A stretch of DNA of 64,000 nt from a virus (IMGVR_UViG_3300025158_000018); one strand, 5' to 3'; positions 11,637 to 36,183 are shown, counted from the stretch's first letter. The notes: generated by a model from the sequence alone, not told the origin. Made by a program: numbers and translations.

Positions 11637-11654
11637 GAAGGAATCACTCAGCAA

Positions 11655-15378: not shown

Positions 15379-15608
15379 TCGAACAAGATCATTCCCAGCA
15401 TGTGAAACCCCGAAAGAATGACAAAAACTACCGCGATGGTGCCCAAAATGCCAATGAGAACGCAGTATGCAAAGACGAAAAGAATTCCAATGTAGAACCG
15501 AAAAGTATCCGGGTCATCACCAAAGATAGCAATAACAATATCCACCGGCAACATGAATACAGTGATGAGGATTGAGGTCAAAGTGTAGGACACGCTGCTG
15601 TTTTCCAT
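15366..15608 (-). CDS. hypothetical membrane protein
   Basis: hydrophobic ORF. Confidence 0.4.
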   Translation of the reverse strand: MENSSVSYTLTSILITVFMLPVDIVIAIFGDDPDTFRFYIGILFVFAYCVLIGILGTIAVVFVILSGFHMLGMILFEWFP

Positions 15609-15669
15609 TTTAGTTCCTGTGAGTGAATTCTATAAGAGCATACTACCATGAAAAAATCGATATGTCAAA

Positions 15670-17363: not shown

Positions 17364-17548
17364 TCTCGTGCTTCCTTCGCACTAGGGAATTCCGTAGCAG
17401 AATTCAACAAAAAAAACATAATTTGCGCCGTTTTTGGTTAGTCGAATGAACATGCCAAATTTTGTAAGACCATCTACTTGAATGATTGCTTTCATGTGAG
17501 TATTCTATCCTATGGAAAGGGTCTTGTCAACCCCCATGTTAGAAAATT

Positions 17549-17622
17549 TGGTACCTCGTGACAGAATCGAACTGCCGTCATCGCTGTGTAAGAGCGTGGT
17601 TCTTCCATTGAACTAACGAGGC
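17549..17622 (-). tRNA. tRNA-Val (TAC)
   Basis: acceptor gcctcgt/acgaggt, D-stem gttc/gaac, loop ctTACac, T-arm ggcag-TTCGATT-ctgtc, CCA; missed by my first pass, found by T-loop scan. Confidence 0.75.
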
Positions 17623-17629
17623 ATTGTTT

Positions 17630-17714
17630 TGGTGCCGAGGGTAGGATTTGAACCTACGGTGTGGAATACTGGGTTACAAAGCCAGTGCAATCGACCAGAC
17701 TATGCGACCTCGGC
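17630..17714 (-). tRNA. tRNA, probably Thr (TGT); unusual 10-11 nt variable region or 9-nt anticodon loop
   Basis: acceptor gccgagg/cctcggc, T-arm gtagg-TTCAAAT-cctac, CCA; anticodon arm folds as ctggc-tttgtaa-cccag (one mismatch) or actgg-9nt-ccagt; TATAAATA 13 nt upstream. Confidence 0.6.
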
Positions 17715-22386: not shown

Positions 22387-22755
22387 TCAATTCTCCTTTA
22401 AATTAGAATCATACCATAGACAATGTGTTTTTGTCAAACGCTTCCGGTCCCTGTGTCGTCGAACCGCATCGTTGTGCATGTCCAGAATTCTCTGCGCCCT
22501 AGAACCGTAGGGAAGAAAAGGCTTCTCCCCACGGTTTACCCTAACACGCTGACGAAAGAACTCTGAGGCCAGCAGATTGAACAAAGCCCAATCACCCGAG
22601 TCAACGAACGCGAAGAACTCGATGCCATACCGCTCACCCCTCGATCCTTCAACCCAGATAATTCTAGTGAATCTTAGGGGCGGATGCATCGTCATCTTGT
22701 TCACTCTCGTGTTGTTCATCTTCCCAATCAGCTTGGCATTCCTGAATATATTCAT
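22387..22755 (-). CDS. hypothetical protein
   Basis: ORF. Confidence 0.4.
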   Translation of the reverse strand: MNIFRNAKLIGKMNNTRVNKMTMHPPLRFTRIIWVEGSRGERYGIEFFAFVDSGDWALFNLLASEFFRQRVRVNRGEKPFLPYGSRAQRILDMHNDAVRRHRDRKRLTKTHCLWYDSNLKEN

Positions 22756-23359
22756 TCAAATAGGGAAAAGCGTCGAAGATTTTGGCCGGAATAATACCCT
22801 CATAAAACTTGATTGGACCCAATTCATCGTAAAGATCAAAATCATCCGGTGAACCTTCTTCACATTCACCATTATCATAAAAACCCCAAGATTGAATACC
22901 TTCCTCAAACCAGACTGCTTCTACTTCAAAACCCATCTCGTGGAGTTTTTCAAAAATCGGAATGGGTGCAGACCAAGCTGTGTCAAAGCTAAGAATCAAT
23001 TCACCATCAGAAAGAGTCACTTCTCCCACACTGTAAGCATCCCACTTGGTACCCCACCGGGAACAATTAAATTCATACCACGTAGGATAACCATGTTTCT
23101 CAATATTTGCAAGTTCGCGTTCTTCTTGAACTTTTTGCTTGTCCGGATCTCCATACCATACCCGCTGTATCATAAGATCATCGGGGCATGGAATAAGATA
23201 ATGGAATAGACTGGTTTCTCGCCCTTCGTCTTCCATGATATCAGCCATGGTTTTAAGAACCTCTTGATCACTTCCACGGATGATCAGACGGTTGGTTACA
23301 TGATTTGGCATACATTTCTCCTTTGTTGAAATTGTATCAGTCGTTCGGGACAATGTCAA
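22664..23359 (-). CDS. hypothetical protein (possible DUF1281-like, WGTKWDAY motif)
   Basis: ORF; motif recollection only. Confidence 0.45.
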   Translation of the reverse strand: MTLSRTTDTISTKEKCMPNHVTNRLIIRGSDQEVLKTMADIMEDEGRETSLFHYLIPCPDDLMIQRVWYGDPDKQKVQEERELANIEKHGYPTWYEFNCSRWGTKWDAYSVGEVTLSDGELILSFDTAWSAPIPIFEKLHEMGFEVEAVWFEEGIQSWGFYDNGECEEGSPDDFDLYDELGPIKFYEGIIPAKIFDAFPYLNEYIQECQADWEDEQHESEQDDDASAPKIH

Positions 23360-23573
23360 GGCAACGAGAAGCCCTGTCTGCGAACTCTTCCAGAATTCGA
23401 GCTACAATATCTTCTGAAGGACGAAAGAATTCAGAAGCCTCTAACAGGACCTGAGACCGAATCGCTCTAACTTCATCTTCATCTATTTCGGTTGTTTTCT
23501 CAACCATTGTGTTTCTCCTTGAGTGAAGACCCCCATGAGACAATCTCAGGGGACCATATGTTTATTGCAACGC

Positions 23574-24134
23574 TTACCAGCTTGCGCGGTATACGTAGTA
23601 CCACCCGGAATATTCTTTCTCGTGAGCTTTGGCTTCTGCCTCATCCCACTCGATCAGTCTACTCAACTCTTCATGCATTCGAACTACAGTTCGATAGTAC
23701 CATAGCTCAAATTCAGTACTACCGAAAAAGTACGCATTTGAAGGTGGAAGCTTTTCCCCAATAGCATTAATCAGATTCTCAGAAAGTTCTGGGATATACT
23801 TTTCATCATCCCCGTATCCCTCCGGAAACATCGACGCCACCTCACCACAAAAATCTCGAAGCTTTTTAAGATCATCGATACTTACCTCGATATCTTGGCA
23901 TTCATCTGTACCATATGCACAATTGTCAATAAACCAATTGTGGATTTGAATAGAATTACGCCAATACATTACATTGAATAGTACCTCAACCGATTTGACG
24001 GACGGCATAGACGCATGACACAGATGCCCTTGAACACTTTCTACTAGTGCCCTGTAAAGCGCGTTGTGTTCTTCAGTATTATGGTCTAAACCACTTACAT
24101 ATTTTCGGGCTTCCAAATACATATCAAGACCCAT
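23574..24134 (-). CDS. hypothetical protein
   Basis: ORF. Confidence 0.45.
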   Translation of the reverse strand: MGLDMYLEARKYVSGLDHNTEEHNALYRALVESVQGHLCHASMPSVKSVEVLFNVMYWRNSIQIHNWFIDNCAYGTDECQDIEVSIDDLKKLRDFCGEVASMFPEGYGDDEKYIPELSENLINAIGEKLPPSNAYFFGSTEFELWYYRTVVRMHEELSRLIEWDEAEAKAHEKEYSGWYYVYRASW

Positions 24135-24203
24135 TACTATTCTCCTTCAGTTAAATAATTATGCTTCCAATAAAGACTATGATTACTCATAATCCCACAA
24201 ATA

Positions 24204-24512
24204 TCAAACAGCCTTACAAATGTTTTCCCAGTGTCTAAGAATGTTAGCAAGTTCTTCTACACGATTCGGGCGATTTTCGAATCGTTTCGATTCTTCAATC
24301 AATGCTTCCTGTAAGTTTGTGTAGTCACATGAGAATTTTGCAACAGCTTCCATATTACTGTAATGTGTGGTAAGGACAACAGTAAGAGCCGCAACAGGGC
24401 TTACGCAAACCGCAAATGGAACTATATCAAAGTCGGCAACCAACATGGAACCTATCAAGACCATAACTGCCAAGACCAAAACATAAACAATAACGAAAAT
24501 TCCAACAGTCAT
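24204..24512 (-). CDS. hypothetical membrane protein
   Basis: hydrophobic N-terminal two-thirds. Confidence 0.4.
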   Translation of the reverse strand: MTVGIFVIVYVLVLAVMVLIGSMLVADFDIVPFAVCVSPVAALTVVLTTHYSNMEAVAKFSCDYTNLQEALIEESKRFENRPNRVEELANILRHWENICKAV

Positions 24513-24574
24513 TCAATTTCTCTTATGTATGAATGATTAATGATCCACCATGATAACACAGTGGATCATCTAAG

Positions 24575-25321
24575 TCAAACAACGTCTGGCCAACCTCGCT
24601 CAAAATCATTCCAAAAAATCTCCATAAGCATAACCGCAGCACCCTTACGACCAGAATCCGCCAATTGATAGTCTTCACTCCAAAGTTGTTCAAATTGTGA
24701 AAGAACATCATCACTCATACGTCGCTTGTAAAAATTCAACAATGCACCCAGCGCAGACTCGAAATTTTGCCGGAACTCAGACAAATCGTCAGAATGATAG
24801 ATGTTATTAAAAAGTTCCTTGTGTCGAGTATTTGACCGATAATTGTCCAATACTGAACCAGCCATTTCTTGAAATGACTCACACGACTCCAACTCACCAT
24901 GAGAGGCCAATAGTCTTACTATCGGGTCAGACTCTAAATTCAAGTTAATGCTGATTGCACCACCATTAACAAAAGTCAAAAAATATCGAAACATCGAAGA
25001 ATTTTTACTTTGAAGATCGAATTCGTATGCAATTGCACTAAAATGATTTAACATCACCGATAACCCAATCGTGCTATCAGTAAAAGGTGCGCTTACATCA
25101 ATCACCGAATGGGTCTTACAATATTTAAACAAATTTTTCCACGCTACTGAAACTTCCTTAACGATAGGCAATTCCTCAACCCGCCCAACCATAACATAAA
25201 AATCAATATCCCCCAAAACTATCCCCAACAGCGGCAACATTGTTACCACCATAAAGTTGTCTGAACAAAATTTCTCCATTGCCATCCCTGATTTCCAAAG
25301 TCTTACCACCAGATAGGTCAA
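24575..25321 (-). CDS. hypothetical protein
   Basis: ORF; last gene of the leftward block. Confidence 0.45.
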   Translation of the reverse strand: MTYLVVRLWKSGMAMEKFCSDNFMVVTMLPLLGIVLGDIDFYVMVGRVEELPIVKEVSVAWKNLFKYCKTHSVIDVSAPFTDSTIGLSVMLNHFSAIAYEFDLQSKNSSMFRYFLTFVNGGAISINLNLESDPIVRLLASHGELESCESFQEMAGSVLDNYRSNTRHKELFNNIYHSDDLSEFRQNFESALGALLNFYKRRMSDDVLSQFEQLWSEDYQLADSGRKGAAVMLMEIFWNDFERGWPDVV

Positions 25322-25403
25322 TGTCGTGCTTCATCAACACGTTTCCCTCTCCATCACGAACTTCGAAAATACTATCCTTGTGACGATCCATACGATTTTT
25401 CAT

Positions 25404-26445
25404 TTCTGTTATCCTCGGTTCTTCTCAACTAATTTCGAGCCGCTGTGTGAATGAATGAGCCACCATACTATCACAGGGTCTCAACCATGTCAACTTCCCG
25501 TAGACGATGAGCGAAACCACCACCCACAAGAAAATAGTATTACAGACATATCAAAAATGTAAAGCATACTTTACATTCTCCCTATAAAGAAAACAATGAG
25601 ACACACTTTCACCCATTTAGCATAACTCTAACCCATTGTCAAGAAAAATTGTATCATCCCATTTCACCCATTTACCACATTTTTTAATAGTTGTCAACCC
25701 TTGCAAATCATCAATATTCATGCTATGATAGTGGTATGAAACTGTATCCAAAAAAGGAAATAAGAATGATTCTCGATTCTACTTGACAACCATTCGCATT
25801 CTCATGTAGCATGAGAACACAATTGATAATCATTCCCATTCGCAAAAGTGAATGAGAATCGTTCGCATTTACACAGATGAGAATGAGAATCATTCGTATT
25901 ACCATTCTCATCAGCATTCAAAGCCCACTTTTCAAGGCTAAAAAATGCTTGACAAGGATCATAACATTTGATAAAATCATTAAGCCTATAGGCAAAATTA
26001 TAATACTTTAGGAAACTCTAATGTAACATTCCCATAAAAATCAAAGACTTACATGAGATAGGGGTCTGGAAAATTTTTCGAAATGTATGCAGAGTTCGGT
26101 CCATGCAATTAGTGTTTAAACATTGATCACTTTACACCATTGAAAAAGTTGTTATTTTTCATATGTTTATGTAGTGTTCTTAGAAGTGCTGGAAATACTG
26201 TGTTCTAAGTATTTTCATATGTTCTACGGGCAGAATGTAAAGTATACTTTACAAAGTAGTATAATAGCTGTTCACCAAATGTGGTAGAAAGTGGAATATT
26301 GTGGTATTATGTGGTAAAAAATGGAAAACCCCTAACGCACGCGTTAGCCCTTAATGGTATCGTGTTGTATAAAAGACACTTAACGGTTTAGTTAATAGTT
26401 CACTTAACTGAATATTACGAGGTTCACTTAACAGGAGTTTAGTTT
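25404..26445. promoter_or_regulatory. 1-kb AT-rich non-coding hub between divergent gene blocks: palindromes, iterons, sigma70-like promoters; candidate early-promoter cluster and/or replication origin
   Basis: TGTAAAG-N4-CTTTACA palindromes at ~25559 and ~26237; TGTGGTA x3 at 10-bp spacing 26280-26316 with inverted copy at ~25665; GAGAATCATTCG-type repeats 25765-25900; TCACTTAAC x3 26378-26432; TTGACA-17-TAAAAT at 25948-25976. Confidence 0.5.
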
Positions 26446-26805
26446 TTGACTAATAAGGTTTTACTTCCATTGATTCGAAGGACTTCATCGGATGATGATT
26501 TGAATAATCCATTTATTATATCGATTTCGTTTGATCATTTCATGGATTGTTTGGATGCTATTATATCGCGTGGGACTGAATGTATGTTTTGTATTCAGCA
26601 TTCATTACGAAGTATGGAATACAGTGAGAAGGATGAATGGTTAATTCTTCGAATGGACTTTGAAGATATGGCGTCGGAAGTTGATAAGACGTTTCGTGTG
26701 ATTTGTAGGGAACATGAAGACGGGATGTTGCGTAAGGTTGATCGGTGTTCACTGACGAATTATGTGAGCCGACAAGATTTTGTGAAGATGTATTTCGTAG
26801 TATGA
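26446..26805 (+). CDS. small DCL-motif paralog family protein (member F)
   Basis: FDHFMDCLDAIISRG aligns with VVDCLDAIFS of 30007..30525. Confidence 0.5.
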   Translation: MTNKVLLPLIRRTSSDDDLNNPFIISISFDHFMDCLDAIISRGTECMFCIQHSLRSMEYSEKDEWLILRMDFEDMASEVDKTFRVICREHEDGMLRKVDRCSLTNYVSRQDFVKMYFVV

Positions 26806-27077
26806 TTGATATTGGTAATTTTATGAAAGAGATGGAACAGGTTGTCTGTATACGAGAACGGGAACGGGAACGTATTATTTCTGATTTAGAAGATTGTATA
26901 GATTGTGTACACAGTCACGGGACGTTTGATAGTCTCGGGAACTTTTTACGTAGTACTAGGTTTTCATTTTTGCTAAGCGATTCTGTTGTTGTTTTTGAGA
27001 AATATTCTATATCTCCTCTTACTTACACTTTGAGCGGTCAGCGTATAGGGGGGGATTTACAAATTTATTTTAGATGA
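26745..27077 (+). CDS. hypothetical protein
   Basis: ORF overlapping previous by 61 nt in another frame. Confidence 0.35.
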   Translation: MFTDELCEPTRFCEDVFRSMIDIGNFMKEMEQVVCIRERERERIISDLEDCIDCVHSHGTFDSLGNFLRSTRFSFLLSDSVVVFEKYSISPLTYTLSGQRIGGDLQIYFR

Positions 27078-27232
27078 CACGACTGGGTCATTTTCTTTTT
27101 CTATAATTAGGCCCAATGGTGCCATTCATGGTAATACTGAAATAATTGAGAATTTGTTTTTTTGAATGATATAAAAAATCAACTGAGTTTATTGGTATTG
27201 GAGTTAAAGAAAAGGTATCCGGGGTATTGGTG

Positions 27233-27742
27233 ATGAAACATGAAACCCATTGTAACTGGGAAATTCTTGAACCTTCAAAGGTATGGGGGATGTACTATCA
27301 ATGCTCCGAGTGTGATAAAATTTTACGTCTGTTCGATCCTAGCGTTAATCCGGATGGTTTAACAAAATTGTGTATTGTCCGAGAAATAGAAGTTATAAAA
27401 GAGAAAATACTTGACATTTACGATTGCCTGAAGTATGCTGTTCTAATTGAAAGCAACCCTTATTCGATTAGTCAAATAAATGTTGGTGGGGAAGATATAA
27501 AAACAGACGTTTATTTGGGAAAAAATGTTTTAGAAATATACACAGTACTTAATTCAAGAATCACGATACTGCTGTGGAAGTTTGAGTGGGACGAGAATGG
27601 TTTATTTGTTGTGACCGGGGACGCCAAAGAACCGAGACAACAATTAACACAAAAATACATCACTCGTGTTGGGGATAATTTGGAAAATTGTCTAGACGAT
27701 ATTCAAAGAGAGTTGCGGGATAACGTAAAGGGTTATTGGTAA
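27233..27742 (+). CDS. small DCL-motif paralog family protein (member A), ends GYW
   Basis: ILDIYDCLKYAVL; C-terminal ..KGYW; ATG at 27233 (track start 27227 is TTG). Confidence 0.55.
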   Translation: MKHETHCNWEILEPSKVWGMYYQCSECDKILRLFDPSVNPDGLTKLCIVREIEVIKEKILDIYDCLKYAVLIESNPYSISQINVGGEDIKTDVYLGKNVLEIYTVLNSRITILLWKFEWDENGLFVVTGDAKEPRQQLTQKYITRVGDNLENCLDDIQRELRDNVKGYW

Positions 27743-27763
27743 AAAGGAAAATACGGAAAAATT

Positions 27764-28216
27764 ATGAAAAATATTTCGAGTCACATTATGGGTATATCGG
27801 CATGTGTTCTGCTACTGGCAACATACATGGTGGTAGACAACACATTTATTCATATAATCGTAACAATATCTACGATTTATTTGTTATTCAATTCTGTTTT
27901 TGGTTCTATTGGTTTGTGGATCATGTATAAAAGCATCTCAAAATATAATTTGGAATTGTTAGACGATAACAGTTTCAAAGCTAATTTTGATGGTGGTGCA
28001 TCTATTGAAATAAACACAGATTTGGCTAATGATTTTTGGGGTTCAGTCTCATACGGTTTTCTGGTATTATCGACCTCTTGGTGGCTTTTTTCTGCTGGGT
28101 GGACCGTAGAATCATTGTGTATGATCGCGTTCAATATAATTTTTTGGATTATGTTGAAGACAATGTATGAATACTCTAAAAGCATTTTAAAACATCTCAA
28201 GGAGTCAAAAAGATGA
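27764..28216 (+). CDS. hypothetical multi-pass membrane protein
   Basis: four hydrophobic helices. Confidence 0.5.
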   Translation: MKNISSHIMGISACVLLLATYMVVDNTFIHIIVTISTIYLLFNSVFGSIGLWIMYKSISKYNLELLDDNSFKANFDGGASIEINTDLANDFWGSVSYGFLVLSTSWWLFSAGWTVESLCMIAFNIIFWIMLKTMYEYSKSILKHLKESKR

Positions 28217-28620
28217 AAAACAGCCGTGATATTTCTGGAGTTAGAAAAGATTATCTTCTTCGTCTGATTAGATCACTTCGAAGGAACATTGAAGCAGACC
28301 CGGAAGTGATTCAAACAAAAGAAGAGTGTGGTGAAGATGCCATTATAGTTGGATGGATGTCGGATGCGATTGCCCTGTGTAATGTTGTGGAGAGGGAAGT
28401 TATTCTCAACGATAACGTCCCTAGTATTACACAAGAGGATTTTAGGTCACAATTTGCTGATCCATATGAAAAGGAATTGATTGAACTTTTAGGTCACATA
28501 GATACCTTGTTGCGTATAGCATCAGACAAATCTGGTATTGTCACTCCAGAAGAACAAAAATGCATCGAAGAGGCACAAATTTTATTGTGGAGCTATGATT
28601 ATGATGATTATGAAAAATGA
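28213..28620 (+). CDS. hypothetical protein
   Basis: ORF, 4-nt overlap with neighbours. Confidence 0.45.
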   Translation: MKNSRDISGVRKDYLLRLIRSLRRNIEADPEVIQTKEECGEDAIIVGWMSDAIALCNVVEREVILNDNVPSITQEDFRSQFADPYEKELIELLGHIDTLLRIASDKSGIVTPEEQKCIEEAQILLWSYDYDDYEK

Positions 28621-28644
28621 AATCACTGGTCCCGAACGGAGTAT

Positions 28645-29118
28645 TTGGTTATGGGACTAAGAGCTTATGGAATGATTTCCAACACAAAAGAAATTGGTGG
28701 CCGTGAGATATCGGTGGTAAAATCTTGCAACAGTTTTTTTATTCAGCAAGAAGGATTGAAGGGAACGCTGCTTCTTCCTTCTGCCTTGGATGAACAACTT
28801 GAACTTGTAGCTTATCTGGAAGATGAAATATATAACCATCAAACCAACAACAACATTAACAAGACGGCTACCGGTGCCTCGATTGAGTCGAGTATCATGT
28901 ACCTCACCACCGACCGAAAATTTAAATATTTTTGTGGATATTCGGCCCAGAATGATGTTTACCGTTTAATATTGACAACACATTTTGGTTCAACCTCCAA
29001 GGAAGAAAACAGTGTTAGAATTATAACATTTTCTGCTGGTGAAATTGAAAACTTTTTAGAGTTTCTCAAAGAATCATTTTCTGAATTGTCTAGGTTCAGA
29101 GACGAGGACTTGCTATGA
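28645..29118 (+). CDS. hypothetical protein
   Basis: ORF. Confidence 0.45.
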   Translation: MVMGLRAYGMISNTKEIGGREISVVKSCNSFFIQQEGLKGTLLLPSALDEQLELVAYLEDEIYNHQTNNNINKTATGASIESSIMYLTTDRKFKYFCGYSAQNDVYRLILTTHFGSTSKEENSVRIITFSAGEIENFLEFLKESFSELSRFRDEDLL

Positions 29119-29600
29119 AAAAAGATAAATTCAAAGAACACCAATACGAAATGGACACACACAAACTTCTAACAAGGTTTGAAGATATTATGGATTGTTT
29201 GTCTTCTCATCATATTGAATATTATCAATATAGCGACTTTTCGAGGACCATTTTAGGGGGTGTGTTCGGAGAATTGATTGTTGTTGATGGGCGTATACTT
29301 AAAACAAGAACCAACGACTCGGTATACGACGTAGAAAAATTATGTGAATATAGTATTGTAGAAGATGATATGATCATAATTAAACATCAACACGAAAATT
29401 TGGAAACCAATCGTAAATCCCAAAATCAATATTATGTTTTAAAAGAAGGTGCAATTGAAGGTGAAGCCGTAATCGTGTCTGCGGGTGACTATTATTCATC
29501 TGTTCCGGTCATTTCGTCATCCATGGCTACCTATTTTTGGTCAGAGTTAAATGTGATAGAACGGGCATTGAAGAAAGATTTCCCGGAATATTGGAAATGA
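29115..29600 (+). CDS. small DCL-motif paralog family protein (member B), ends EYWK
   Basis: FEDIMDCLSSHH; C-terminal DFPEYWK. Confidence 0.55.
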   Translation: MKKDKFKEHQYEMDTHKLLTRFEDIMDCLSSHHIEYYQYSDFSRTILGGVFGELIVVDGRILKTRTNDSVYDVEKLCEYSIVEDDMIIIKHQHENLETNRKSQNQYYVLKEGAIEGEAVIVSAGDYYSSVPVISSSMATYFWSELNVIERALKKDFPEYWK

Positions 29601-30007
29601 CAGAAGAAGAAAATAAAAAATTGAATATAGAGTTGTGCGAACTATTCCAAGACATTTGGGATTGTCTTAGAACTTCTAATAAATTTGATGAACTCTATTA
29701 TTTAATTGAGTCTACCAGAAATCCCGTGTACCAACTTAGAGAAGAACATCTTGACATTTCGACCGATTACGTTTATAGGATAACAATAATTGATGAAAAC
29801 ATTATACACTTTGTAATATCTATGGCTAGTGGATACATGAGTTTTACGGTAGACCAAGAACTAGAAACTGCCCAACAGACAGTGAACGATCCGGATAGAA
29901 ACACGGATTTTAAATTTTCTGAAGGATTACGTATGAATGAACATGATATTTGTGTTTTAGAAAACGTTTTAGATTGGTGTGAAAAAATCAACCCGGATTA
30001 TTGGTAA
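29597..30007 (+). CDS. small DCL-motif paralog family protein (member C), ends DYW
   Basis: FQDIWDCLRTSN; C-term NPDYW; ATGA start/stop overlap with member B. Confidence 0.55.
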   Translation: MTEEENKKLNIELCELFQDIWDCLRTSNKFDELYYLIESTRNPVYQLREEHLDISTDYVYRITIIDENIIHFVISMASGYMSFTVDQELETAQQTVNDPDRNTDFKFSEGLRMNEHDICVLENVLDWCEKINPDYW

Positions 30008-30525
30008 TGAATATTATAAACAGAATAAAATCTATGATGAATTTTCGCACCCGAGACGAGCCTAAAAACGAAGAACTTGGGAACGAAATCGAGTTTGTTG
30101 GAATAAGTAATGTTATTGGAAAGGACCAGATTCGGTTTATAATTTTTTATGAATTCGGGCATGTGGTTGATTGTTTAGATGCTATTTTTTCCAACAATAT
30201 GGAACAACAGGTTTGCAAAAATATTTCAAGGTCAGATTTGTGTATTACTGAATTGGGTGTGGGGGATTATGTAGATGAATACGGGGATACATGGGTTAAT
30301 GTGTTATTAATAACACCAACACATTTCTCACATAAAAAACCTCTTTTCCATGAATTTTTGTTCGCGTTTCGAGAGACTGACAATATAGACTTAAAAGATT
30401 CCATAACAGTCAAGCTTATGCATAAAACTAAAACTGATCTCAATGTGACAGAATGGCAAGATCTTGTTGAAAGAACTTTTATTCAAATAATTCAGGTTGG
30501 TAAAAAAATTGAAGGATATTGGTAA
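30007..30525 (+). CDS. small DCL-motif paralog family protein (member D), ends GYW
   Basis: FGHVVDCLDAIFSNN; C-term KIEGYW; TAATG overlap with member C. Confidence 0.55.
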   Translation: MNIINRIKSMMNFRTRDEPKNEELGNEIEFVGISNVIGKDQIRFIIFYEFGHVVDCLDAIFSNNMEQQVCKNISRSDLCITELGVGDYVDEYGDTWVNVLLITPTHFSHKKPLFHEFLFAFRETDNIDLKDSITVKLMHKTKTDLNVTEWQDLVERTFIQIIQVGKKIEGYW

Positions 30526-30926
30526 TCATGCTGCCCCATAATAACGACAATCGTTTTTTTGATGACATAAAAAGACTTTGTTCAGGTGTTAGTAACTGTA
30601 CAGTTCATACAGATTGTCTATCGCTTTACACCAAAGTCCATATTAAATTTACAATGGACGTAGATTTTATTTCTGATTGCGTGTATTGTTTTCTCAATTC
30701 TACACATGGAAGACTTTTTATGGAAGAACACGAATTTGAATTCGATTCTAATGAAGAGTGTTTTAGCAAAAATTGTCATTATGCGATGAATGAAATGGAA
30801 ATAGCTTCGGAAATTTTATGTCTCTTTAGTAGCATAGAAAATGCAATCCAGAAGGACAAATCTTATTTCTCAGAAGAAGAAAGACCTGACGTATTAGAAA
30901 AACTGAAAAAATCACTAAGAGGATAA
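30519..30926 (+). CDS. small Cys-rich protein, probable divergent member of DCL family (member E)
   Basis: VHTDCLSLY, FISDCVYCF. Confidence 0.45.
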   Translation: MVIMLPHNNDNRFFDDIKRLCSGVSNCTVHTDCLSLYTKVHIKFTMDVDFISDCVYCFLNSTHGRLFMEEHEFEFDSNEECFSKNCHYAMNEMEIASEILCLFSSIENAIQKDKSYFSEEERPDVLEKLKKSLRG

Positions 30927-30929
30927 AAA

Positions 30930-31469
30930 ATGACAACATATGCAATGATTGATATAGAAACAACAGATACGAGCGCGAGGACATGCATCCTCAGTATAGG
31001 TATTGTGTTTTTTGACAATGAAGAAATAACCAAACAATTGTATATACTACCGGAACTCCAACCGCAGATTGATGCGGGAAGGCGTTTAAGTGTATCTACA
31101 CTGAATTTCTGGATGACACAAAGCTCAGAGGCCAAGAGAGACGTTTTTAGTCAAGAGTCACGCGTTAGTATAGATTATGCAATAGAACAGCTTAGGAGAC
31201 TCGACAAGGCCGACATCATCCTCTCACACGACTTGGACTTGGACTTGGCAGCAATCATAGACTTTTACAATCAGTTTGCTGAAGATAATACAATCCCACT
31301 ATTTCATTATCGAAAGAAAAGATGTTTTAGAACCATTGGGCGAATCTATGACCCACGGTGCAAGTATCAACCGGAACGAACCGTGTATCACAACGCCTTA
31401 GACGACGCACTTGTACAAGCCAAACATTTCATGAGACTTCGTGAAGAGTTTGACATAAACATAGAATAA
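30930..31469 (+). CDS. DEDDh-family 3'-5' exonuclease (DnaQ-like)
   Basis: Exo I MIDIETTD, Exo III YHNALDDA. Confidence 0.75.
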   Translation: MTTYAMIDIETTDTSARTCILSIGIVFFDNEEITKQLYILPELQPQIDAGRRLSVSTLNFWMTQSSEAKRDVFSQESRVSIDYAIEQLRRLDKADIILSHDLDLDLAAIIDFYNQFAEDNTIPLFHYRKKRCFRTIGRIYDPRCKYQPERTVYHNALDDALVQAKHFMRLREEFDINIE

Positions 31470-31486
31470 CGAAAGAGAATCAAACT

Positions 31487-31807
31487 ATGAATATATTTTA
31501 CGTTGACGATCCGATATCGTCTTTTTTACAACATTGTTCCAACAACAGAAACCCAATACCGGGGGTGCAGGTCAATACAACCCCAAGAATGATAATGTTT
31601 AGCTACGTGGATGGCAACAAAGAAAATAGATCTTTTACCTTCCATACTGAAGAAAAATCATTCTCTGTTCGTTCAAATGGTCACTTCATAGGAAAATTTT
31701 CCTATGAAGGCGACAAGATCTTGGCGGATTGGTCTAATCGATTGACAAAATCTGAAAAACGTGTCATGATGGAAAATATCCAAGAGTTCTTTAGGAAGAT
31801 ACAATGA
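31487..31807 (+). CDS. hypothetical protein
   Basis: ORF. Confidence 0.45.
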   Translation: MNIFYVDDPISSFLQHCSNNRNPIPGVQVNTTPRMIMFSYVDGNKENRSFTFHTEEKSFSVRSNGHFIGKFSYEGDKILADWSNRLTKSEKRVMMENIQEFFRKIQ

Positions 31808-32337
31808 ACCTAGAAGACAACAAATGGTTGTACCGTCATCTTAAATTAGCTGAAGAAATTTCGGGATGGTCAAAAGACCAATCCACGAAGGTGGGGGCCT
31901 TGATAGTGACTCCGGAAGGTAAACCCGTTTCATGGGGATACAATGGAATTCCTATGGGCGTCAATGAATCTGATTCGAATGGCTCTTTGAATAGAAACTA
32001 TGCCCCCACGAAATACCATTATTATGCTCATGCGGAAAGAAATGCTCTTGATTTGAGTAGAAGTTCTGTTCAAGACTGTTGGCTATTCACGACACACCCA
32101 CCATGTTCTGACTGTGCTAGAGGTATCATCCAAACTGGAATATCTACCGTGGTGGTTAATGTAAAAGGGCTACATGATTTTCTATCTAGGAGAAGTTCGG
32201 ATTGGTGTGAATCGGCGTTTCATTCGGTTACAATGTTTGGGGAAGCCGGTGTTGGTGTCGTTTACTTTGACATGATTAAAGGTATTAGAGTAGAACCAGA
32301 AGCAATAACAATAACAAAGGAGCAGGTATGTTTGTAA
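31804..32337 (+). CDS. cd: dCMP (deoxycytidylate) deaminase
   Basis: zinc motifs HAERNAL and PCSDCA. Confidence 0.85.
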   Translation: MNLEDNKWLYRHLKLAEEISGWSKDQSTKVGALIVTPEGKPVSWGYNGIPMGVNESDSNGSLNRNYAPTKYHYYAHAERNALDLSRSSVQDCWLFTTHPPCSDCARGIIQTGISTVVVNVKGLHDFLSRRSSDWCESAFHSVTMFGEAGVGVVYFDMIKGIRVEPEAITITKEQVCL

Positions 32338-32729
32338 AACACATAGAAGAACAAAATTTCATTGATGCTGGGTTTTCAATAAACCCCCTATCTAGAGAAA
32401 CCTTCTCTAAGCAGATAATAGACTCTGACACGATATCGACATATGTCCAAGTATGGATAGATGTCAATACCTATCGGTTCAAAGCCGTTACTGATAAGGA
32501 AGGTACTGTAGAATATGGTAGTATCCGAAACAAAGAAGACCTTGCTGAAGTCAATCGAAGATTTTTCGAAGATCATAAAAAAGAGTTTCTTGTTCGTCAG
32601 CTGATACCATTGGTGGACGAAAAAATCCAAATGGACAGTATTCAAAGAGCAATTCTGTTGAACATCATAGAAATGTTTGACGATGGACAAGTTGACGATC
32701 TGATTAAAACCCATTTTGGAGATGTATGA
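32328..32729 (+). CDS. hypothetical protein
   Basis: ORF. Confidence 0.45.
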   Translation: MFVKHIEEQNFIDAGFSINPLSRETFSKQIIDSDTISTYVQVWIDVNTYRFKAVTDKEGTVEYGSIRNKEDLAEVNRRFFEDHKKEFLVRQLIPLVDEKIQMDSIQRAILLNIIEMFDDGQVDDLIKTHFGDV

Positions 32730-33337
32730 TGAAAAAACCCACTTCTCATATTATTTTAACAAACAACGTCTCCGAAATTATTTCCCTGTCTAGGAACATG
32801 AAACGTGAAAGTGGTGGGATGAAATTTTCTACCGTTAAAGGAAACAAACGCACTCTTTCTCTTGAAGATATTTTTACCAAGAGGGAAATTCATTTGAAAT
32901 GTTTGAAAACCGACACGACGCCACCGCTAAAATATATATGCACGTTTGAAAAAGCGTTTGATCTGGGTCCCCTAGTTCAATATTTTTCTTGGAATGACCA
33001 AACTAAATCTAGTCTATATCTGGGAGATTTTGATTTCCCCCAGCTTATAGACATTCTAAAAGTAATGGACAATCGGGATAAGCTTAATCTTTGTTTAATA
33101 GTTTCCGAGAACATAAACACAAAAAGTATTGGTTTTTTGATTGAATCAGAAAACCAAAACATAGGCATCATTATAGATTATTCCAGAGATTCCAATGGAG
33201 TGACACCATTTAAGATATTCGGAATTAGCAGCACTTCAGACGGTGTATTAGAGCTTTTTTACACGAGTCCACAGGAAGGACAGGAAGGTTTCAAATTGGC
33301 GATATCTCTAATAGAAAAATATTCGGTGAAAGCTTGA
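32726..33337 (+). CDS. hypothetical protein
   Basis: ORF. Confidence 0.45.
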   Translation: MMKKPTSHIILTNNVSEIISLSRNMKRESGGMKFSTVKGNKRTLSLEDIFTKREIHLKCLKTDTTPPLKYICTFEKAFDLGPLVQYFSWNDQTKSSLYLGDFDFPQLIDILKVMDNRDKLNLCLIVSENINTKSIGFLIESENQNIGIIIDYSRDSNGVTPFKIFGISSTSDGVLELFYTSPQEGQEGFKLAISLIEKYSVKA

Positions 33338-33531
33338 TGAGTGATTCAGTCGTAATAGAGTGTATCAAAGAAAAGATCGCAGAAGAGAAAAAAGCCAATC
33401 CAATGCTTCTCGATAAATTTACAGACACAGTGGAATTTGAGATGGGACTCAAGATAGGAATGGAGGCCATCTACGAATACCTGTCAAATCGCTACGAATT
33501 CGTAGAGAAGAAAGCTGTTGAAGATAAATAG
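33334..33531 (+). CDS. hypothetical protein
   Basis: ORF. Confidence 0.35.
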   Translation: MMSDSVVIECIKEKIAEEKKANPMLLDKFTDTVEFEMGLKIGMEAIYEYLSNRYEFVEKKAVEDK

Positions 33532-33553
33532 TAATAGCATTCAAAAAATAACC

Positions 33554-33868
33554 ATGAAAATATTCCTATTTGTTCTTCTGTTTTTAGTGGCCGGGTGTAC
33601 ACCCCCCACAACAAATGATATACTAGATAATCAATGGACTTGTAAACACTTGTACGATAGAGAACGTACATACATTTTCGATGCTAATAACATAAAAAAA
33701 ATTCAACCACAACAATGCTCTGCTATCATCATGAGAGACGGAGCATGCCCTGTTTACATTCGAATCGTCCTAGACTCTGGTGAAACTATCTGGTTTACTG
33801 AAGCCGAATGGGAAAATTATACTTGTAATTTCGAAGGGGAAAACCATGAAACTAGAAAAGATATTTGA
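33554..33868 (+). CDS. putative lipoprotein
   Basis: signal peptide MKIFLFVLLFLVAGC with lipobox Cys. Confidence 0.5.
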   Translation: MKIFLFVLLFLVAGCTPPTTNDILDNQWTCKHLYDRERTYIFDANNIKKIQPQQCSAIIMRDGACPVYIRIVLDSGETIWFTEAEWENYTCNFEGENHETRKDI

Positions 33869-34124
33869 AGAAATACACTCCAATGAAGCAGAAACGGTCC
33901 GCAAAGCATCTGCACCGGGTAAATTGGGTGGTTTTATAACCAGTGCGCAAGCCGCCAAGCTGTTGGGCGTGGAAATGTCCAGAATCCGTCAACTAGTCGG
34001 AGAAGGCAAGTTGAAGTCATACAAACCGGAGGCCGGTCGTAGAGACCATATACTCAAGCGCTCGGAAGTAGAAAAACTCAGAGGTAAGAAAAAAGACAAA
34101 GGCGGAAGACCAGAAGGGTCTTGA
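33846..34124 (+). CDS. HTH DNA-binding protein
   Basis: AAKLLGVEMSRIRQLVGEGKL helix-turn-helix; basic C-terminus. Confidence 0.45.
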   Translation: MKLEKIFEEIHSNEAETVRKASAPGKLGGFITSAQAAKLLGVEMSRIRQLVGEGKLKSYKPEAGRRDHILKRSEVEKLRGKKKDKGGRPEGS

Positions 34125-34173
34125 CCCATAACGCCCAAGCTTTTATAATTAAAATCTTACATGAGGAAAAACT

Positions 34174-34464
34174 ATGAACCAAAACATTGTAGCAGAAATT
34201 TACACTAAACCATCTTGCCCCTACTGTGTCAAAGCAAAAAAAGTTCTGGAGCGACATGGAATTGAGGTTGAAGAACGAATCGTTGGACAAGATGCTACCA
34301 AAGAAGACATTCAAGCAATTGTAGACCGCTTGGGGGTTGATGCTACCGTTAAAACTGTACCACAAATATTCTTCCACACCACCACTAATGCTGGTAGTAT
34401 AGAATATATTGGTGGCTGTGACGATCTTATTAAATACCTTGGGGGCGATGGGCGCTCCCAATAA
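34174..34464 (+). CDS. nrdC: glutaredoxin (NrdC/NrdH-like)
   Basis: CPYC active site, Y.K..CPYC.KAK..L pattern, TVPQIF. Confidence 0.85.
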   Translation: MNQNIVAEIYTKPSCPYCVKAKKVLERHGIEVEERIVGQDATKEDIQAIVDRLGVDATVKTVPQIFFHTTTNAGSIEYIGGCDDLIKYLGGDGRSQ

Positions 34465-34488
34465 TCCAACACAATAAGGAGATTTATA

Positions 34489-34656
34489 ATGGAAGACCAA
34501 ACAGTACAAGTGATGCTTATACTAGCTGGACTCGCCGTTCTAGTTTGGGCTGTTTTGAAATGGCGAAAAAGAGACGACGATGACAACAACGGAGGAGGGG
34601 GAAACCCACCTAGACCACCGGGTGGTGGTGGAACACCTCCACAGCAGATGAAATAA
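34489..34656 (+). CDS. small membrane protein with G/P-rich tail (55 aa)
   Basis: perfect AAGGAG RBS 8 nt upstream of ATG; TM helix; weak hairpin+T-run after stop. Confidence 0.5.
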   Translation: MEDQTVQVMLILAGLAVLVWAVLKWRKRDDDDNNGGGGNPPRPPGGGGTPPQQMK

Positions 34657-34739
34657 ACATCTAAAAATATAAAACCCTCGCCCTGCGGGGGTTTTTCATT
34701 TGACAGTACAAGAAGTTTCTGCTATCATATTCTCTCAGA

Positions 34740-35291
34740 ATGAGGAAATTTAGAATGAAATTTTTCAAATTTTTAACTGCCCAATTTGGACTAGCAGAAG
34801 CAGATTTAGATTATTATCTAATGCAACTTTTTATGGTACCGATGATACACATTTTTGCTATTATCCCGTGGTTGTTTGGTCCCACCATAGGGCAAAGTTT
34901 TCCTACTACACCTATTATCTTAGTCTTTTCGGGCGCAATAGTATCTTTTTCTTTGGCCGCAATTGATAATATAATAGAGCTTATCTCGGATTATCTAACT
35001 AGATCCCGTAGCACAATCAGAAAATTCTTTGCGAAAAATTTTGTTCCAGATCATTTGTTAGAATATTATAGAGAACCGGTTCTACCTCCGGGATATTTTT
35101 TTCCAAGACCCATGCCTTTTGTTGCGTTAATGTCTTTTTGGGCATCAACGATGGGCTTGATAGGGGCAATTCTACACTTTCCATGGATAACATTGGGAAC
35201 AATACTAGTATTGTTACTAGTAACAATCGGATTTATAATTCTCAGAAAAAAATTCGACGAATACTATAACAAGATTGGGGACAAAAAATGA
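34740..35291 (+). CDS. hypothetical multi-pass membrane protein
   Basis: hydrophobic helices. Confidence 0.5.
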   Translation: MRKFRMKFFKFLTAQFGLAEADLDYYLMQLFMVPMIHIFAIIPWLFGPTIGQSFPTTPIILVFSGAIVSFSLAAIDNIIELISDYLTRSRSTIRKFFAKNFVPDHLLEYYREPVLPPGYFFPRPMPFVALMSFWASTMGLIGAILHFPWITLGTILVLLLVTIGFIILRKKFDEYYNKIGDKK

Positions 35292-35713
35292 TCAAAGAAA
35301 TTATCTTAGCCGGAAATGTAATCGCATCTTCCGCAGAAAATTTAGTTGAATTAAATGGTTATTGGGAGAATTCGCAACACGCAGTATCAATCAATATTAC
35401 CAACACCAGCGGTGAAATTATATGGTATACAACCGGATTTACTGTCGGAGAAGATGTTTGGTACAATGGGGAACTTTATTACTCTGAATATATCAGCGCC
35501 TATTGTGCCGATCTAACTCCCGGAAACACCATTCTACCAACTGTACTGTACCCCGTTCCACCTCTAGGAACCATCTGTATGGATGTTATTGATGAAACTT
35601 TGATCATTGGTTACTCTGTTGAAATGAGGGATTTTGGGAATTGCTTGTTCATGACTTGGAATTCGCATATCCCCCGGAAATGCGGCGGTAATATGGACAT
35701 GTTTAGAAAATGA
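35288..35713 (+). CDS. hypothetical protein
   Basis: ORF. Confidence 0.45.
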   Translation: MIKEIILAGNVIASSAENLVELNGYWENSQHAVSINITNTSGEIIWYTTGFTVGEDVWYNGELYYSEYISAYCADLTPGNTILPTVLYPVPPLGTICMDVIDETLIIGYSVEMRDFGNCLFMTWNSHIPRKCGGNMDMFRK

Positions 35714-36183
35714 AATTGATTAAAGGTGATTTATTGAAAAATACCAGTGGACTTCTATTGCATGGAGTCAACTGTCAACAAAAAATGAATTCTGGGATAG
35801 CAAAAGCAATAAGAGCAAAATGGCCTATAGTGTTTCAAGAATACTACAAGTTGGGAAAAGGAAAGCACTTGCTTGGAACTTTTCAACCAGTCGTCATTAG
35901 TAATTATCTGGTTATTGGAAATTGTTTTACTCAGGAATTTTATGGTCACACTGGTGGGCCATACGCTGACCTTGGGGCCATACGTAAGTCCTTGACAACT
36001 GCCGCAGAGTGGGCTAAAATTGAAGACATGGAACTGAAGATGCCGAAAATTGGAGCCGGTCTGGGCGGATTGGATTGGGTTGATGTAGCTATGGTAGTGG
36101 AAGAAGTAGAAGAATCGGTGGGCATAGAAATTAGTGTTTATCAAATTTCCCCCGGTACACAAAAAGCTGTGCTTTTTCGTTAG
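35710..36183 (+). CDS. macrodomain protein, TARG1/OARD1/DarG-like
   Basis: GDLL..LLHGVNCQQKMNSGIAKAIRAKWP and KIGAGLGGLDWVDV match TARG1-type macrodomain pattern as recalled. Confidence 0.65.
   Translation: MKLIKGDLLKNTSGLLLHGVNCQQKMNSGIAKAIRAKWPIVFQEYYKLGKGKHLLGTFQPVVISNYLVIGNCFTQEFYGHTGGPYADLGAIRKSLTTAAEWAKIEDMELKMPKIGAGLGGLDWVDVAMVVEEVEESVGIEISVYQISPGTQKAVLFR

What the first reader, a model, noticed from the sequence alone, without database searches (positions are those of the whole stretch)
26446..30926. Operon of at least six small paralogous proteins sharing a DCL motif and a C-terminal Y-W
Members F, A, B, C, D and E are each 120-175 aa and share a [F/I]-x-D-[I/V]-x-D-C-L block. Four of them end in GYW, EYW or DYW. 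Genes are tightly packed with ATGA/TAATG overlaps directly downstream of the regulatory hub. I do not recognise the family. Tandem diversified small proteins in an early region are typical of host-takeover or anti-defence arsenals.
Basis: seen in the sequence. Interest (0 to 1): 0.6.

Follow-up and report, generated by a model that had tools for sequence, protein, structure and literature searches.

The report
Fast-evolving orphan phage paralog family
An uncultured giant phage carries six tandem copies (one decayed) of a small acidic protein with no detectable relatives outside its own small clade; they diverge far more than neighbouring genes, as host-manipulation or counter-defence genes do, but their function is untested.

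Summary
The core observation is real. Six adjacent + strand genes (F, F2, A, B, C, D) share an N-terminal helix block, hydrophobic-x-x-[IVF]-x-D-C-[LIV]. In leave-one-paralog-out HMM tests each ranks first of about 185 ORFs. A, B, C and D end in G/E/D-Y-W; only one other of 306 ORFs does.

- E's "HTDCL" is not conserved in its orthologues, and E cannot be told from background.
- The overlooked F2 is a member, but decayed. Its frame runs through five stops to "...LKKRYPGYW" just before A.
- Three apparently unrelated genes (a membrane protein, X1, X2) interrupt the array.
- There are two subtypes: D/F and A/B/C/F2.

The family has no match in Pfam, PHROGs, PADLOC, PDB, GenBank phages, IMG/VR or GTDB genomes. 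An exhaustive search of 1.84 billion proteins gave one real homologue. Two related metagenomic phages carry C-D-E orthologues at 26-49% identity, next to an exonuclease at 66-88%. One of them has a broken B.

AlphaFold models were low confidence (pLDDT 44 and 52) and fold searches were uninformative.

Best reading: a lineage-specific, birth-and-death family of cytoplasmic acidic proteins in an early-looking operon, probably host-interaction or anti-defence binders. Function is inferred from context only. This is a new family of a familiar kind, of moderate interest.

The parts
25404..26445 (.). Divergent intergenic control region between the leftward cluster and the family operon. It holds two copies of an 18-bp palindrome and sigma-70-like promoters.
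   Evidence: The sequence was read. The palindrome TGTAAAGYATACTTTACA occurs only at 25558-25575 and 26236-26253 in the window. The best promoter match is TTGACA-17-TAAAAT with TG at 25949-25977 (+). A TATAAT at 26260-26265 lies just after the right palindrome.
26446..26805 (+). F: 119-aa family member of the D subtype, with block FIISISFDHFMDCLDAIIS. It is C-terminally shorter than D and does not end in YW.
   Evidence: An AGGAG lies 8 nt before the TTG start. phmmer D-F gives E 1e-4 and hhalign F-D gives P 6e-6 over 77 columns. It ranks first in the N-block leave-one-out test at 16.4 bits. An out-of-frame 'YD*YW*' DNA remnant at 26803-26817 resembles D's 'EGYW*' end (repeat D13).
26802..27236 (+). 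F2: decayed family member of the B/C subtype. The open part is 26802-27077 (91 aa, block DLEDCIDCV). The same frame then passes five stops (27075, 27108, 27132, 27138, 27147) to '...LELKKRYPGYW' followed by TGATGA, which overlaps A's ATG.
   Evidence: The frame was read. hhalign gives F2-C P 1e-3 and F2-B P 4e-3, and the F2 tail against B's C-terminus P 9e-4. It ranks first in the N-block leave-one-out test. A DNA repeat links 27173-27200 to C's 3' end at 29982-30009 at 82% (repeat D3).
27233..27742 (+). A: 169-aa member with block KILDIYDCL, ending in GYW. It has an N-terminal extension with HC-x16-CxxC, a possible zinc knuckle.
   Evidence: It ranks first in the N-block leave-one-out test at 6.3 bits. 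hhalign A-C gives P 6e-3 over 43 columns.
27764..28216 (+). M: 150-aa hydrophobic (membrane) protein that interrupts the array. It shows no family features.
   Evidence: The translation is and GRAVY is +0.54. No family block was found. The partial ORF at the 5' end of L004, immediately before X1, is probably its orthologue, judged by position only.
28213..28620 (+). X1: 135-aa acidic protein with no demonstrable family membership. It has an orthologue in L004 at 51% identity.
   Evidence: hhalign X1-E gives only P 0.036.
28651..29118 (+). X2: 155-aa acidic protein with no demonstrable family membership. It is absent between X1 and B in L004.
29115..29600 (+). B: 161-aa member with block RFEDIMDCL, ending in EYWK.
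   Evidence: It ranks first in the N-block leave-one-out test at 15.6 bits. hhalign B-C gives P 3e-4. Its L004 orthologue is broken by a frameshift and a TAG stop.
29597..30007 (+). C: 136-aa member with block LFQDIWDCL, ending in DYW. It is the most acidic member in the window (pI 4.25).
   Evidence: Orthologues in L004 and L005 are 49% and 40% identical. The termini are conserved and the centre is variable. The AF2 model has pLDDT 52 and reads helix-helix, four strands, C-terminal helix.
30007..30525 (+). D: 172-aa member of the D subtype with block FGHVVDCLDAI, ending in GYW.
   Evidence: The only real homologue in 1.84 billion representatives is P0006 (E 2.5e-8, 30% identity, VVDCIDAI...EDYW). 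The L005 orthologue is 26% identical. The AF2 model has pLDDT 44.
30528..30926 (+). E: 132-aa acidic protein. It is conserved in synteny in L004 and L005, but family membership is unproven. Its conserved blocks are MD-x-D-x-[IM]-SD[CA] and EDK[ST]YF, followed by a tail of 18-20 residues.
   Evidence: Alignment A6, block tests and hhalign.
30930..31469 (+). Context: an Rv2179c-like 3'-5' exoribonuclease, the next gene of the same tightly packed unit. It served as the slow-evolving comparator.
   Evidence: Pfam PF16473, E 1.5e-24. It is 88% and 66% identical to the L004 and L005 orthologues.

Best explanation
WHAT IT IS (shown)
- The window comes from a large phage. Contigs reach 257 kb, it encodes an rIIA-like protein, tRNAs and a tmRNA, and it has no close cultured relative.
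- Right after a divergent promoter/operator region, a long and tightly coupled + strand operon begins with a lineage-specific family of small (119-172 aa), acidic proteins with no evident signal peptide or membrane segment.
- There are six copies: F, F2 (decayed), A, B, C and D.
- They fall into two subtypes: D/F and A/B/C/F2.
- All six share an N-terminal amphipathic helix carrying an invariant Asp-Cys (h-x-x-[IVF]-x-D-C-[LIV]).
- The full-length copies end in an invariant Tyr-Trp, preceded by a C-terminal helix in the two low-confidence models.
- Between orthologues of C, the N-terminal and C-terminal parts are conserved and the strand-rich centre is highly variable.

HOW IT PROBABLY WORKS (inferred, not shown)
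- The conserved terminal helices, the D-C block and the YW form a common scaffold.
- The variable centre is the specificity surface.
- The paralogues are expressed early from host-type promoters. Each binds and neutralises a different host protein or defence component.
- The family evolves by duplication, rapid divergence and loss, as in an arms race.
For: - Family reality:
  - Motif counts.
  - The leave-one-group-out N-block test, where every member ranks first of about 185 ORFs.
  - The five best of 91 hhalign pairs are all within the family.
  - F-D P 6e-6.
- Protein-level conservation, not DNA-level: synonymous variation occurs at the conserved codons (Tyr TAT/TAC, Pro CCG/CCA/CCT, five different Leu codons), and the contexts after the stop codon differ.
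- Coding status: C and D have intact orthologues in two other phages.
- Greater divergence than the neighbours: C 49/40% and D 33/26% identity against exonuclease 88/66%, p106 68/56% and dCMP deaminase 74/70%.
- Conserved termini and variable centre: in C, 15 of the first 30 positions, 5 of the middle 79 and 14 of the last 27 are invariant.
- Turnover:
  - F2 is decayed in the window.
  - B is broken in L004.
  - X2 is absent in L004.
  - L005 has different genes upstream of C.
- Early-type context:
  - An 11/12 sigma-70 match with extended -10.
  - A paired palindromic operator.
  - ATGA/TAATG coupling.
  - Downstream nucleotide-metabolism genes.
- All members are acidic, pI 4.1-5.1, against a median of 6.2 for ORFs of at least 150 aa.
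- Orphan status.
Against: - There is no direct evidence of function, timing or target.
- Promoter-like sites are not enriched over shuffles in the region as a whole (33 found against 33.6 expected), so 'early' rests on a few good matches and on position.
- High divergence and pseudogenes are equally expected for dispensable genes under relaxed constraint.
- Synonymous sites are saturated at these distances, so positive selection could not be tested.
- The AF2 models are low confidence (pLDDT 44 and 52). The scaffold/variable-surface picture therefore rests on conservation patterns and predicted secondary structure only.
- Apart from D-F, full-length homology between members is weak.
- An invariant Asp-Cys could point to chemistry (metal or catalysis) rather than scaffolding.
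Confidence: 0.45

Rival explanations
1. Dispensable ORFan expansion under relaxed constraint. The copies arose by tandem duplication and are drifting and decaying. They have no specialised host-directed role and at most a redundant, minor one.
For: - One copy is decayed in the window (F2) and another is broken in L004 (B).
- F is C-terminally truncated relative to D.
- Orthologue identity is very low.
- The family is confined to three rare metagenomic phages.
Against: - C, D and E are kept intact and syntenic in three phages whose shared exonuclease is only about 66% identical.
- The D-C block and terminal YW stay invariant despite 26-49% overall identity, with synonymous changes at those codons. 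That indicates purifying selection on a functional core.
Confidence: 0.17
2. Phage-internal adaptors or regulators. The conserved termini (the D-C helix plus C-terminal YW) dock onto one common partner, such as a phage or host enzyme complex, RNA polymerase, a protease or a chaperone. The variable centres recruit different clients or tune activity.
For: - The conserved positions concentrate at the two termini, as expected for a shared docking site.
- An invariant aromatic C-terminus is typical of peptide-in-groove docking motifs (general knowledge, not tested here).
- The genes are co-transcribed with nucleotide-metabolism genes.
Against: - No partner was identified.
- Nothing distinguishes a docking site from a folding core with the present low-confidence models.
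Confidence: 0.18
3. Small enzymes or ligand binders that use the invariant Asp-Cys and the terminal Tyr-Trp. Candidates are thiol-dependent modification, metal binding, or a nucleotide-signal 'sponge' that stacks ligands on the aromatic residues.
For: - Asp and Cys are invariant in all 11 block sequences, and YW in all 10 full-length ends.
- An invariant single Cys is unusual for a purely structural helix (general knowledge).
Against: - No conserved His or second Cys exists across the family (alignments A7 and A9).
- There is no Pfam or PDB sequence match.
- Keeping several strongly diverged paralogues is hard to explain if the ligand is the same.
Confidence: 0.1
4. Packaged (internal or ejected) virion proteins, like the paralogous inner-body or internal proteins of giant and T4-like phages. 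They would be delivered with the DNA.
For: - Giant phages are known to carry tandem paralogous families of internal head proteins (general knowledge).
- The proteins here are small and acidic.
Against: - The genes lie in an early-looking operon with nucleotide-metabolism genes. No structural or assembly domain was detected nearby, although many large ORFs in the window are unannotated.
- There is no match to any structural domain.
Confidence: 0.05

Closest known systems
Host-takeover module of Bacillus phage SPO1 (24 small early genes, e.g. gp44 and gp46)
   Same: - It is a cluster of smaller-than-average genes at the start of early transcription units with strong host-type promoters, and its products bind host proteins (PMC8892312).
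- Here the genes are also small, sit behind sigma-70-like promoters and are tightly coupled.
   Different: - To my knowledge the SPO1 module genes are mostly unrelated to each other. Here six genes are paralogues of one family.
- There is no sequence similarity.
- Expression timing here is inferred, not measured.
Plastic or hyperplastic accessory regions of T4-like and jumbo phages (lineage-specific ORFan arrays near rII and early genes)
   Same: - The phage encodes an rIIA-like protein.
- The arrays consist of small ORFans with high turnover between related genomes.
   Different: - This comparison rests on general knowledge of T4-superfamily genome architecture.
- No homologous ORFs exist in any GenBank phage.
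Tandem polyimmunity arrays (SUKH/SMI1-KNR4 and other Imm families)
   Same: - They are tandem, strongly diversified small cytoplasmic alpha+beta proteins that act by binding.
- The predicted helix, beta-meander, helix layout is loosely similar.
   Different: - No Pfam SUKH or Imm model matches, even at E <= 1.
- No associated toxin gene is present.
- The fold could not be established.
Plant-type DYW deaminase domain (PF14432)
   Same: Protein C is 136 aa and ends in D-Y-W.
   Different: - There is no HxE...CxxC zinc-deaminase signature and no Pfam hit.
- The other members end in GYW or EYW.
- The resemblance is a coincidence of the last three residues.

Membership tests
DCL...YW paralogue family (defined here) | N-terminal helix block h-x-x-[IVF]-x-D-C-[LIV], recognisable by an HMM built without the tested paralogue | tested here: met
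   F, F2, A, B, C and D each rank first of about 185 non-training ORFs, at 6.3-16.4 bits against a background of at most 2.7.
DCL...YW paralogue family (defined here) | C-terminus ends in [GED]-Y-W (with or without one more residue) | tested here: met
   - A, B, C and D end this way.
- So do the orthologues in L004 and L005.
- So does the conceptual end of decayed F2.
- F does not: it is truncated.
DCL...YW paralogue family: membership of E (and of X1 and X2) | The same two blocks, at significance | tested here: not met
   - E's HTDCL is not conserved in its orthologues.
- E ranks 13th at 0.5 bits for the N block and is unranked for the C block.
- The best hhalign P values are 0.05 (F-E) and 0.036 (X1-E).
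- A distant relationship is not excluded.
DYW cytidine-deaminase domain (PF14432) | Zinc-binding HxE...CxxC deaminase signature and a match to the Pfam model | tested here: not met
   No Pfam hit at E <= 1. There is no conserved His or second Cys in alignments A7 and A9.
SUKH / SMI1-KNR4 and related immunity proteins | Match to the Pfam SUKH or Imm models | tested here: not met
   No hit at E <= 1 for any of the 10 proteins.
SUKH / SMI1-KNR4 and related immunity proteins | The SUKH alpha+beta fold | tested here: inconclusive
   The AF2 models are low confidence, pLDDT 44 and 52. Fold searches found nothing significant.
SPO1-type host-takeover module (a functional class) | Small genes behind strong host-type early promoters | tested here: inconclusive
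   - Gene sizes are 119-172 aa.
- One 11/12 sigma-70 match with TG lies at 25949-25977, and a TATAAT at 26260.
- The overall count of promoter-like sites equals the shuffled expectation.
SPO1-type host-takeover module (a functional class) | Transcribed in the first minutes of infection, with products that act on host targets | not testable with these tools
   This needs a cultured phage-host pair, RNA-seq and interaction assays.
Known phage protein families and defence-related families (PHROGs, PADLOC) | A significant profile match | tested here: not met
   The best E-values are 0.03-0.3, all to families of unknown function or to spurious Cas hits.
DNA-mimic anti-restriction proteins (Ocr, ArdA, Arn) | A strongly acidic surface together with the mimic fold | tested here: inconclusive
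   - pI is 4.1-5.1.

The most novel reading that the evidence does not exclude
The DCL...YW proteins are a previously undescribed class of phage counter-defence or host-takeover effectors. They are built on a fixed two-helix scaffold (the Asp-Cys helix plus a C-terminal helix capped by Tyr-Trp) with a hypervariable beta-rich centre. In effect this is a phage-encoded, duplicating 'binder library' whose members each disable a different host factor or immune system.
Probability: 0.3. Interest if true: 0.6.

Novelty: new member of a known kind. Interest (0 to 1): 0.35.

Why it matters
If the inferred role is right, the family would add a new fold or scaffold to the catalogue of phage anti-defence and host-takeover proteins. 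It would also offer a natural series of diverged paralogues, plus three-phage orthologue sets, for mapping specificity determinants.

As it stands, it is a well-delimited ORFan family in an uncultured giant phage. It is useful as an annotation: family definition, subtypes, a pseudogene and corrected membership. It is also a candidate for screens. It does not overturn or open any long-standing question, because lineage-specific paralogue arrays are common in large phages.

Tried and rejected
SEARCHES THAT FOUND NOTHING BEYOND THE PHAGE ITSELF
- Megablast of the region and tblastn of all ten concatenated proteins against GenBank phages found no match. The L004 and L005 orthologues also found none.
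- IMG/VR scans found none, whether with D, the exonuclease, or the exonuclease and C alignments.
- GTDB genome scans found none.
- Word-indexed searches with C and with the 7-paralogue profile returned only the phage's own proteins.

- A concatenated B-C-D-E-exo-p106 three-phage profile returned nothing at all, not even self hits. I treat this as a technical failure.
- afdb50 was unavailable.

CHECKS THAT GAVE NO USABLE INFORMATION
- Strain variation: L001-L003 are 100% identical to the window, and the apparent indel in L001 is a run of N. Within-species dN/dS was therefore not possible.

IDEAS TESTED AND REJECTED
- The terminal YW is a DNA-level translational-coupling cassette (TATTGGTAATG). 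Rejected because:
  - Tyr, Pro, Asp and Gly codons vary synonymously.
  - Several YW stops are followed by spacers rather than overlaps.
- The motif is a chance coincidence.
- The family is a DYW deaminase.
- The C-terminal helix block is shared across subtypes. Leave-one-out recovers only the F2 tail, so apart from YW it is subtype-specific.
- X1 and X2 are members.

Full report
**Context**

The window belongs to a large phage with no close cultured relative.
- It encodes an rIIA-like protein (29-41% identity to the best phage hits).
- It also encodes an NAD-dependent ligase, NAMPT, a CCA-adding enzyme and an Rv2179c-like exoribonuclease, and a dCMP deaminase.
- It carries 11 tRNAs and a permuted tmRNA.
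- Protein C occurs on 36 contigs, the longest 256,834 bp.
- Three fetched loci are 100% identical to the window. An apparent indel in L001 is only a run of N.
- Megablast against GenBank phages finds nothing.
- The nearest cultured-phage exonuclease is only about 32% identical.

**Anatomy**

Genes left of about 25400 run on the - strand. From 26446 a long + strand unit begins. The gene order, with ATG-trimmed coordinates, is:

| Gene | Coordinates | Note |
|---|---|---|
| F | 26446-26805 | TTG start, AGGAG 8 nt upstream |
| F2 | 26802-27077 | |
| A | 27233-27742 | |
| M | 27764-28216 | hydrophobic |
| X1 | 28213-28620 | |
| X2 | 28651-29118 | |
| B | 29115-29600 | |
| C | 29597-30007 | |
| D | 30007-30525 | |
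| E | 30528-30926 | |
| exoribonuclease | 30930-31469 | |
| p106 | 31487-31807 | |
| dCMP deaminase | 31804-32337 | and onwards |

- The junctions are ATGA (F/F2, M/X1, X2/B, B/C) or TAATG (C/D), or gaps of 2-30 nt. The exception is the 155-nt F2-A 'gap'.
- The operon therefore does not stop at E. The family forms the 5' part of a longer unit.
- The upstream intergenic region holds an 11/12 sigma-70 match with an extended -10 at 25949-25977.
- It also holds an 18-bp perfect palindrome found only twice in the window, at 25558-25575 and 26236-26253. The right copy sits just before a TATAAT at 26260.
- The overall count of promoter-like sites is no higher than in shuffles.

Yes for six genes.
- DCL occurs in 7 of 306 ORFs, and 6 of those are in the cluster.
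- A terminal YW (with or without one more residue) occurs in A, B, C, D and in only one other ORF.
- Pairwise BLAST and whole-protein leave-one-out HMMs are weak except D-F (E about 1e-4).
- Adding orthologues improved this. In an all-against-all hhalign of 14 gene groups, the five best of 91 pairs are all within the family:
  - F-D, P 6e-6 over 77 columns
  - B-C, 3e-4
  - F2-C, 1e-3
  - F2-B, 4e-3
  - A-C, 6e-3
- I built an HMM of the 21-residue N-terminal block while leaving out each paralogue group in turn. It ranks the omitted member first of about 185 non-training ORFs every time, at 6.3-16.4 bits against a background of at most 2.7.
- The family splits into a D subtype (D and F: F-x-x-[VLF]-x-DC-[LIV]-DAI) and a B/C subtype (A, B, C, F2: [LF]-x-DI-x-DCL).

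1. E does not qualify. The flagged HTDCL aligns to 'MMK--L' in the L005 orthologue.
   - E's conserved blocks are MD-x-D-x-[IM]-SD[CA] and EDK[ST]YF, followed by a tail of 18-20 residues.
   - E is indistinguishable from background in the block tests and in hhalign.
   - It may be a very distant relative, but that is unproven. The same holds for X1 and X2.
2. F2 is a member, but decayed.
   - After its stop at 27075 the same frame runs through four more stops (27108, 27132, 27138, 27147) to '...EFVFLNDIKNQLSLLVLELKKRYPGYW', followed by TGATGA, which overlaps A's ATG.
   - This tail matches B's C-terminus (hhalign P 9e-4).
   - A 28-nt stretch of the tail is 82% identical to C's 3' end (repeat D3).
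   - The 155-nt 'intergenic gap' is therefore the dead 3' half of a paralogue.
3. F is shorter than D at the C-terminus. An out-of-frame 'YD*YW*' lies at its end and resembles D's 'EGYW*' DNA. This suggests a truncated derivative.

**Relatives elsewhere**

- Pfam, PHROGs, PADLOC and PDB sequence searches gave nothing.
- An exhaustive phmmer of D against 1.84 billion representatives gave one real homologue. This is P0006, 30% identical, with VVDCIDAI and ending in EDYW.
- P0006 lies on a 4.2-kb contig, L004, with the order X1, broken B, C, D, E, exo, p106, deaminase.
- A metagenome scan with the exonuclease gave L005, a more distant phage, with C, D, E, exo and so on, but different (MORN-like) ORFs upstream.
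- Nothing further turned up in IMG/VR, GTDB genomes or GenBank phages.

**Evolutionary pattern**

Identity of the window to L004 and L005:

| Gene | vs L004 | vs L005 |
|---|---|---|
| C | 49% | 40% |
| D | 33% | 26% |
| E | 36% | 31% |
| X1 | 51% | - |
| exoribonuclease | 88% | 66% |
| p106 | 68% | 56% |
| dCMP deaminase | 74% | 70% |

- Within C, invariant positions are 15 of the first 30, 5 of the central 79 and 14 of the last 27.
- The conserved D-C and Y-W are kept with synonymous codon changes (Tyr TAT/TAC, Pro CCG/CCA/CCT, five Leu codons).
- The contexts after the stop codon differ (overlap, 2-nt, 7-nt and 21-nt spacers).
- The conservation is therefore at protein level, not a DNA cassette for translational coupling.
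- Gene content turns over:
  - F2 is decayed in the window.
  - B carries a frameshift plus a TAG stop in L004.
  - X2 is absent in L004.
  - The 5' side of the cluster is replaced in L005.

**Physical properties and structure**

- All members and orthologues are acidic, pI 4.1-5.1, against a window median of 6.2. I saw no hydrophobic N-terminal or internal segment on reading the translations; no dedicated predictor was run.
Both models were low confidence.
  - D: pLDDT 44, with a strand, a helix carrying DCL, three strands and a long C-terminal helix.
  - C: pLDDT 52 and pTM 0.44, with helices at 3-27 (DCL at 22-24) and 30-39, strands at 59-66, 69-76, 79-86 and 103-107, and a helix at 115-131.
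- Fold searches with the C model gave nothing significant.
  - BFVD: best E 0.02.
  - PDB Foldseek: best E 0.2.
- The fold is therefore unassigned.

**Interpretation**

*Shown:*
- This is a real, lineage-restricted paralogue family with two subtypes, a conserved N-terminal D-C helix and a C-terminal YW.
- It diverges far more than neighbouring genes and undergoes gene birth and death.
- It sits at the head of an operon behind host-type promoter and operator elements.

*Inferred:*
- The conserved termini form a common scaffold or a common docking site.
- The variable centre provides specificity.
- The products act early on host targets, in counter-defence or host takeover.

I put about 0.45 on this functional reading. 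The rivals are:
- relaxed-constraint ORFans (0.17);
- adaptors docking onto one shared partner (0.18);
- small enzymes or ligand binders using the D-C and YW residues (0.10);
- packaged internal proteins (0.05).

**Comparison with known systems**

- The nearest functional analogue is the SPO1 host-takeover module: small early genes behind strong promoters, with products such as Gp44 and Gp46 that inhibit host proteins (PMC8892312). Here, in contrast, the genes are paralogues and share no sequence with that module.
- The plastic accessory regions of T4-like and jumbo phages are a second analogue (general knowledge).
- The 'DYW' ending of C is coincidental. There is no deaminase signature.
- SUKH-type polyimmunity arrays resemble the arrangement, but no model matches.

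**Verdict**

- This is a new family of a familiar kind.
- Interest is moderate to low (0.35).

Noticed in passing
window 25558-25575 and 26236-26253: An 18-bp perfect palindrome, TGTAAAG(C/T)ATACTTTACA, occurs exactly twice in 64 kb, and no shuffle reaches that count. The two copies lie within the divergent intergenic region, one towards each end. The right copy lies just upstream of a perfect TATAAT at 26260-26265. It looks like a paired operator controlling both divergent gene clusters.
   Followed up: partly
window 25750-25912: Iterated and inverted GAGAATGAGAATCATTCG-type repeats lie inside the same intergenic region. They are reminiscent of Fur-box arrays (GATAATGATAATCATTATC). They appear as repeats D4, I2, I14 and I15.
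   Followed up: no
window 26376-26432: Three copies of CACTTAAC, spaced about 24 nt apart, lie immediately upstream of F's ribosome-binding site. The motif is not enriched elsewhere in the window.
   Followed up: partly
window 51977-52429 (-): A phage-encoded permuted (two-piece type) tmRNA with tag peptide AANDADFDSNANGFALAA (ARAGORN; Rfam RF04321 at 60.9 bits). Eleven tRNA genes lie at 3378-17714. The tmRNA could help assign the host, since permuted tmRNAs are typical of certain bacterial groups.
   Followed up: no
window 27233-27330 (N-terminus of A): Protein A has a roughly 50-residue N-terminal extension containing H-C-x16-C-x-x-C. This may be a small zinc-binding knuckle fused to the family domain.
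   Followed up: no
L004 860-1233: The B orthologue in the related phage contig is interrupted by a frameshift after DIMDCLRSN and by an in-frame TAG. It is either a pseudogene or an assembly error in a low-coverage 4.2-kb contig.
   Followed up: partly
L005 1-530: Upstream of the C orthologue, the more distant phage carries MORN-like repeats (YW-x-NGKLHNE-x-G-x-A) with in-frame stops, in place of M, X1, X2 and B.
   Followed up: no
window 23500-36000 versus L001-L003: Contigs from three different public samples (two ENA, one JGI) are 100.000% identical to the window over 9.5-12.4 kb, and protein C is indexed in 91 data blocks. The phage therefore seems widespread but essentially clonal in public data.
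   Followed up: partly
window 35710-36183 (+) and 22664-23359 (-): A macro-domain protein (PF01661, E 2.5e-5) lies downstream in the same + strand unit. A protein with an Api92-like ferredoxin-like domain (PF18406, marginal hit) lies in the leftward cluster. Macro domains in phages are often linked to countering ADP-ribosylation.
   Followed up: no
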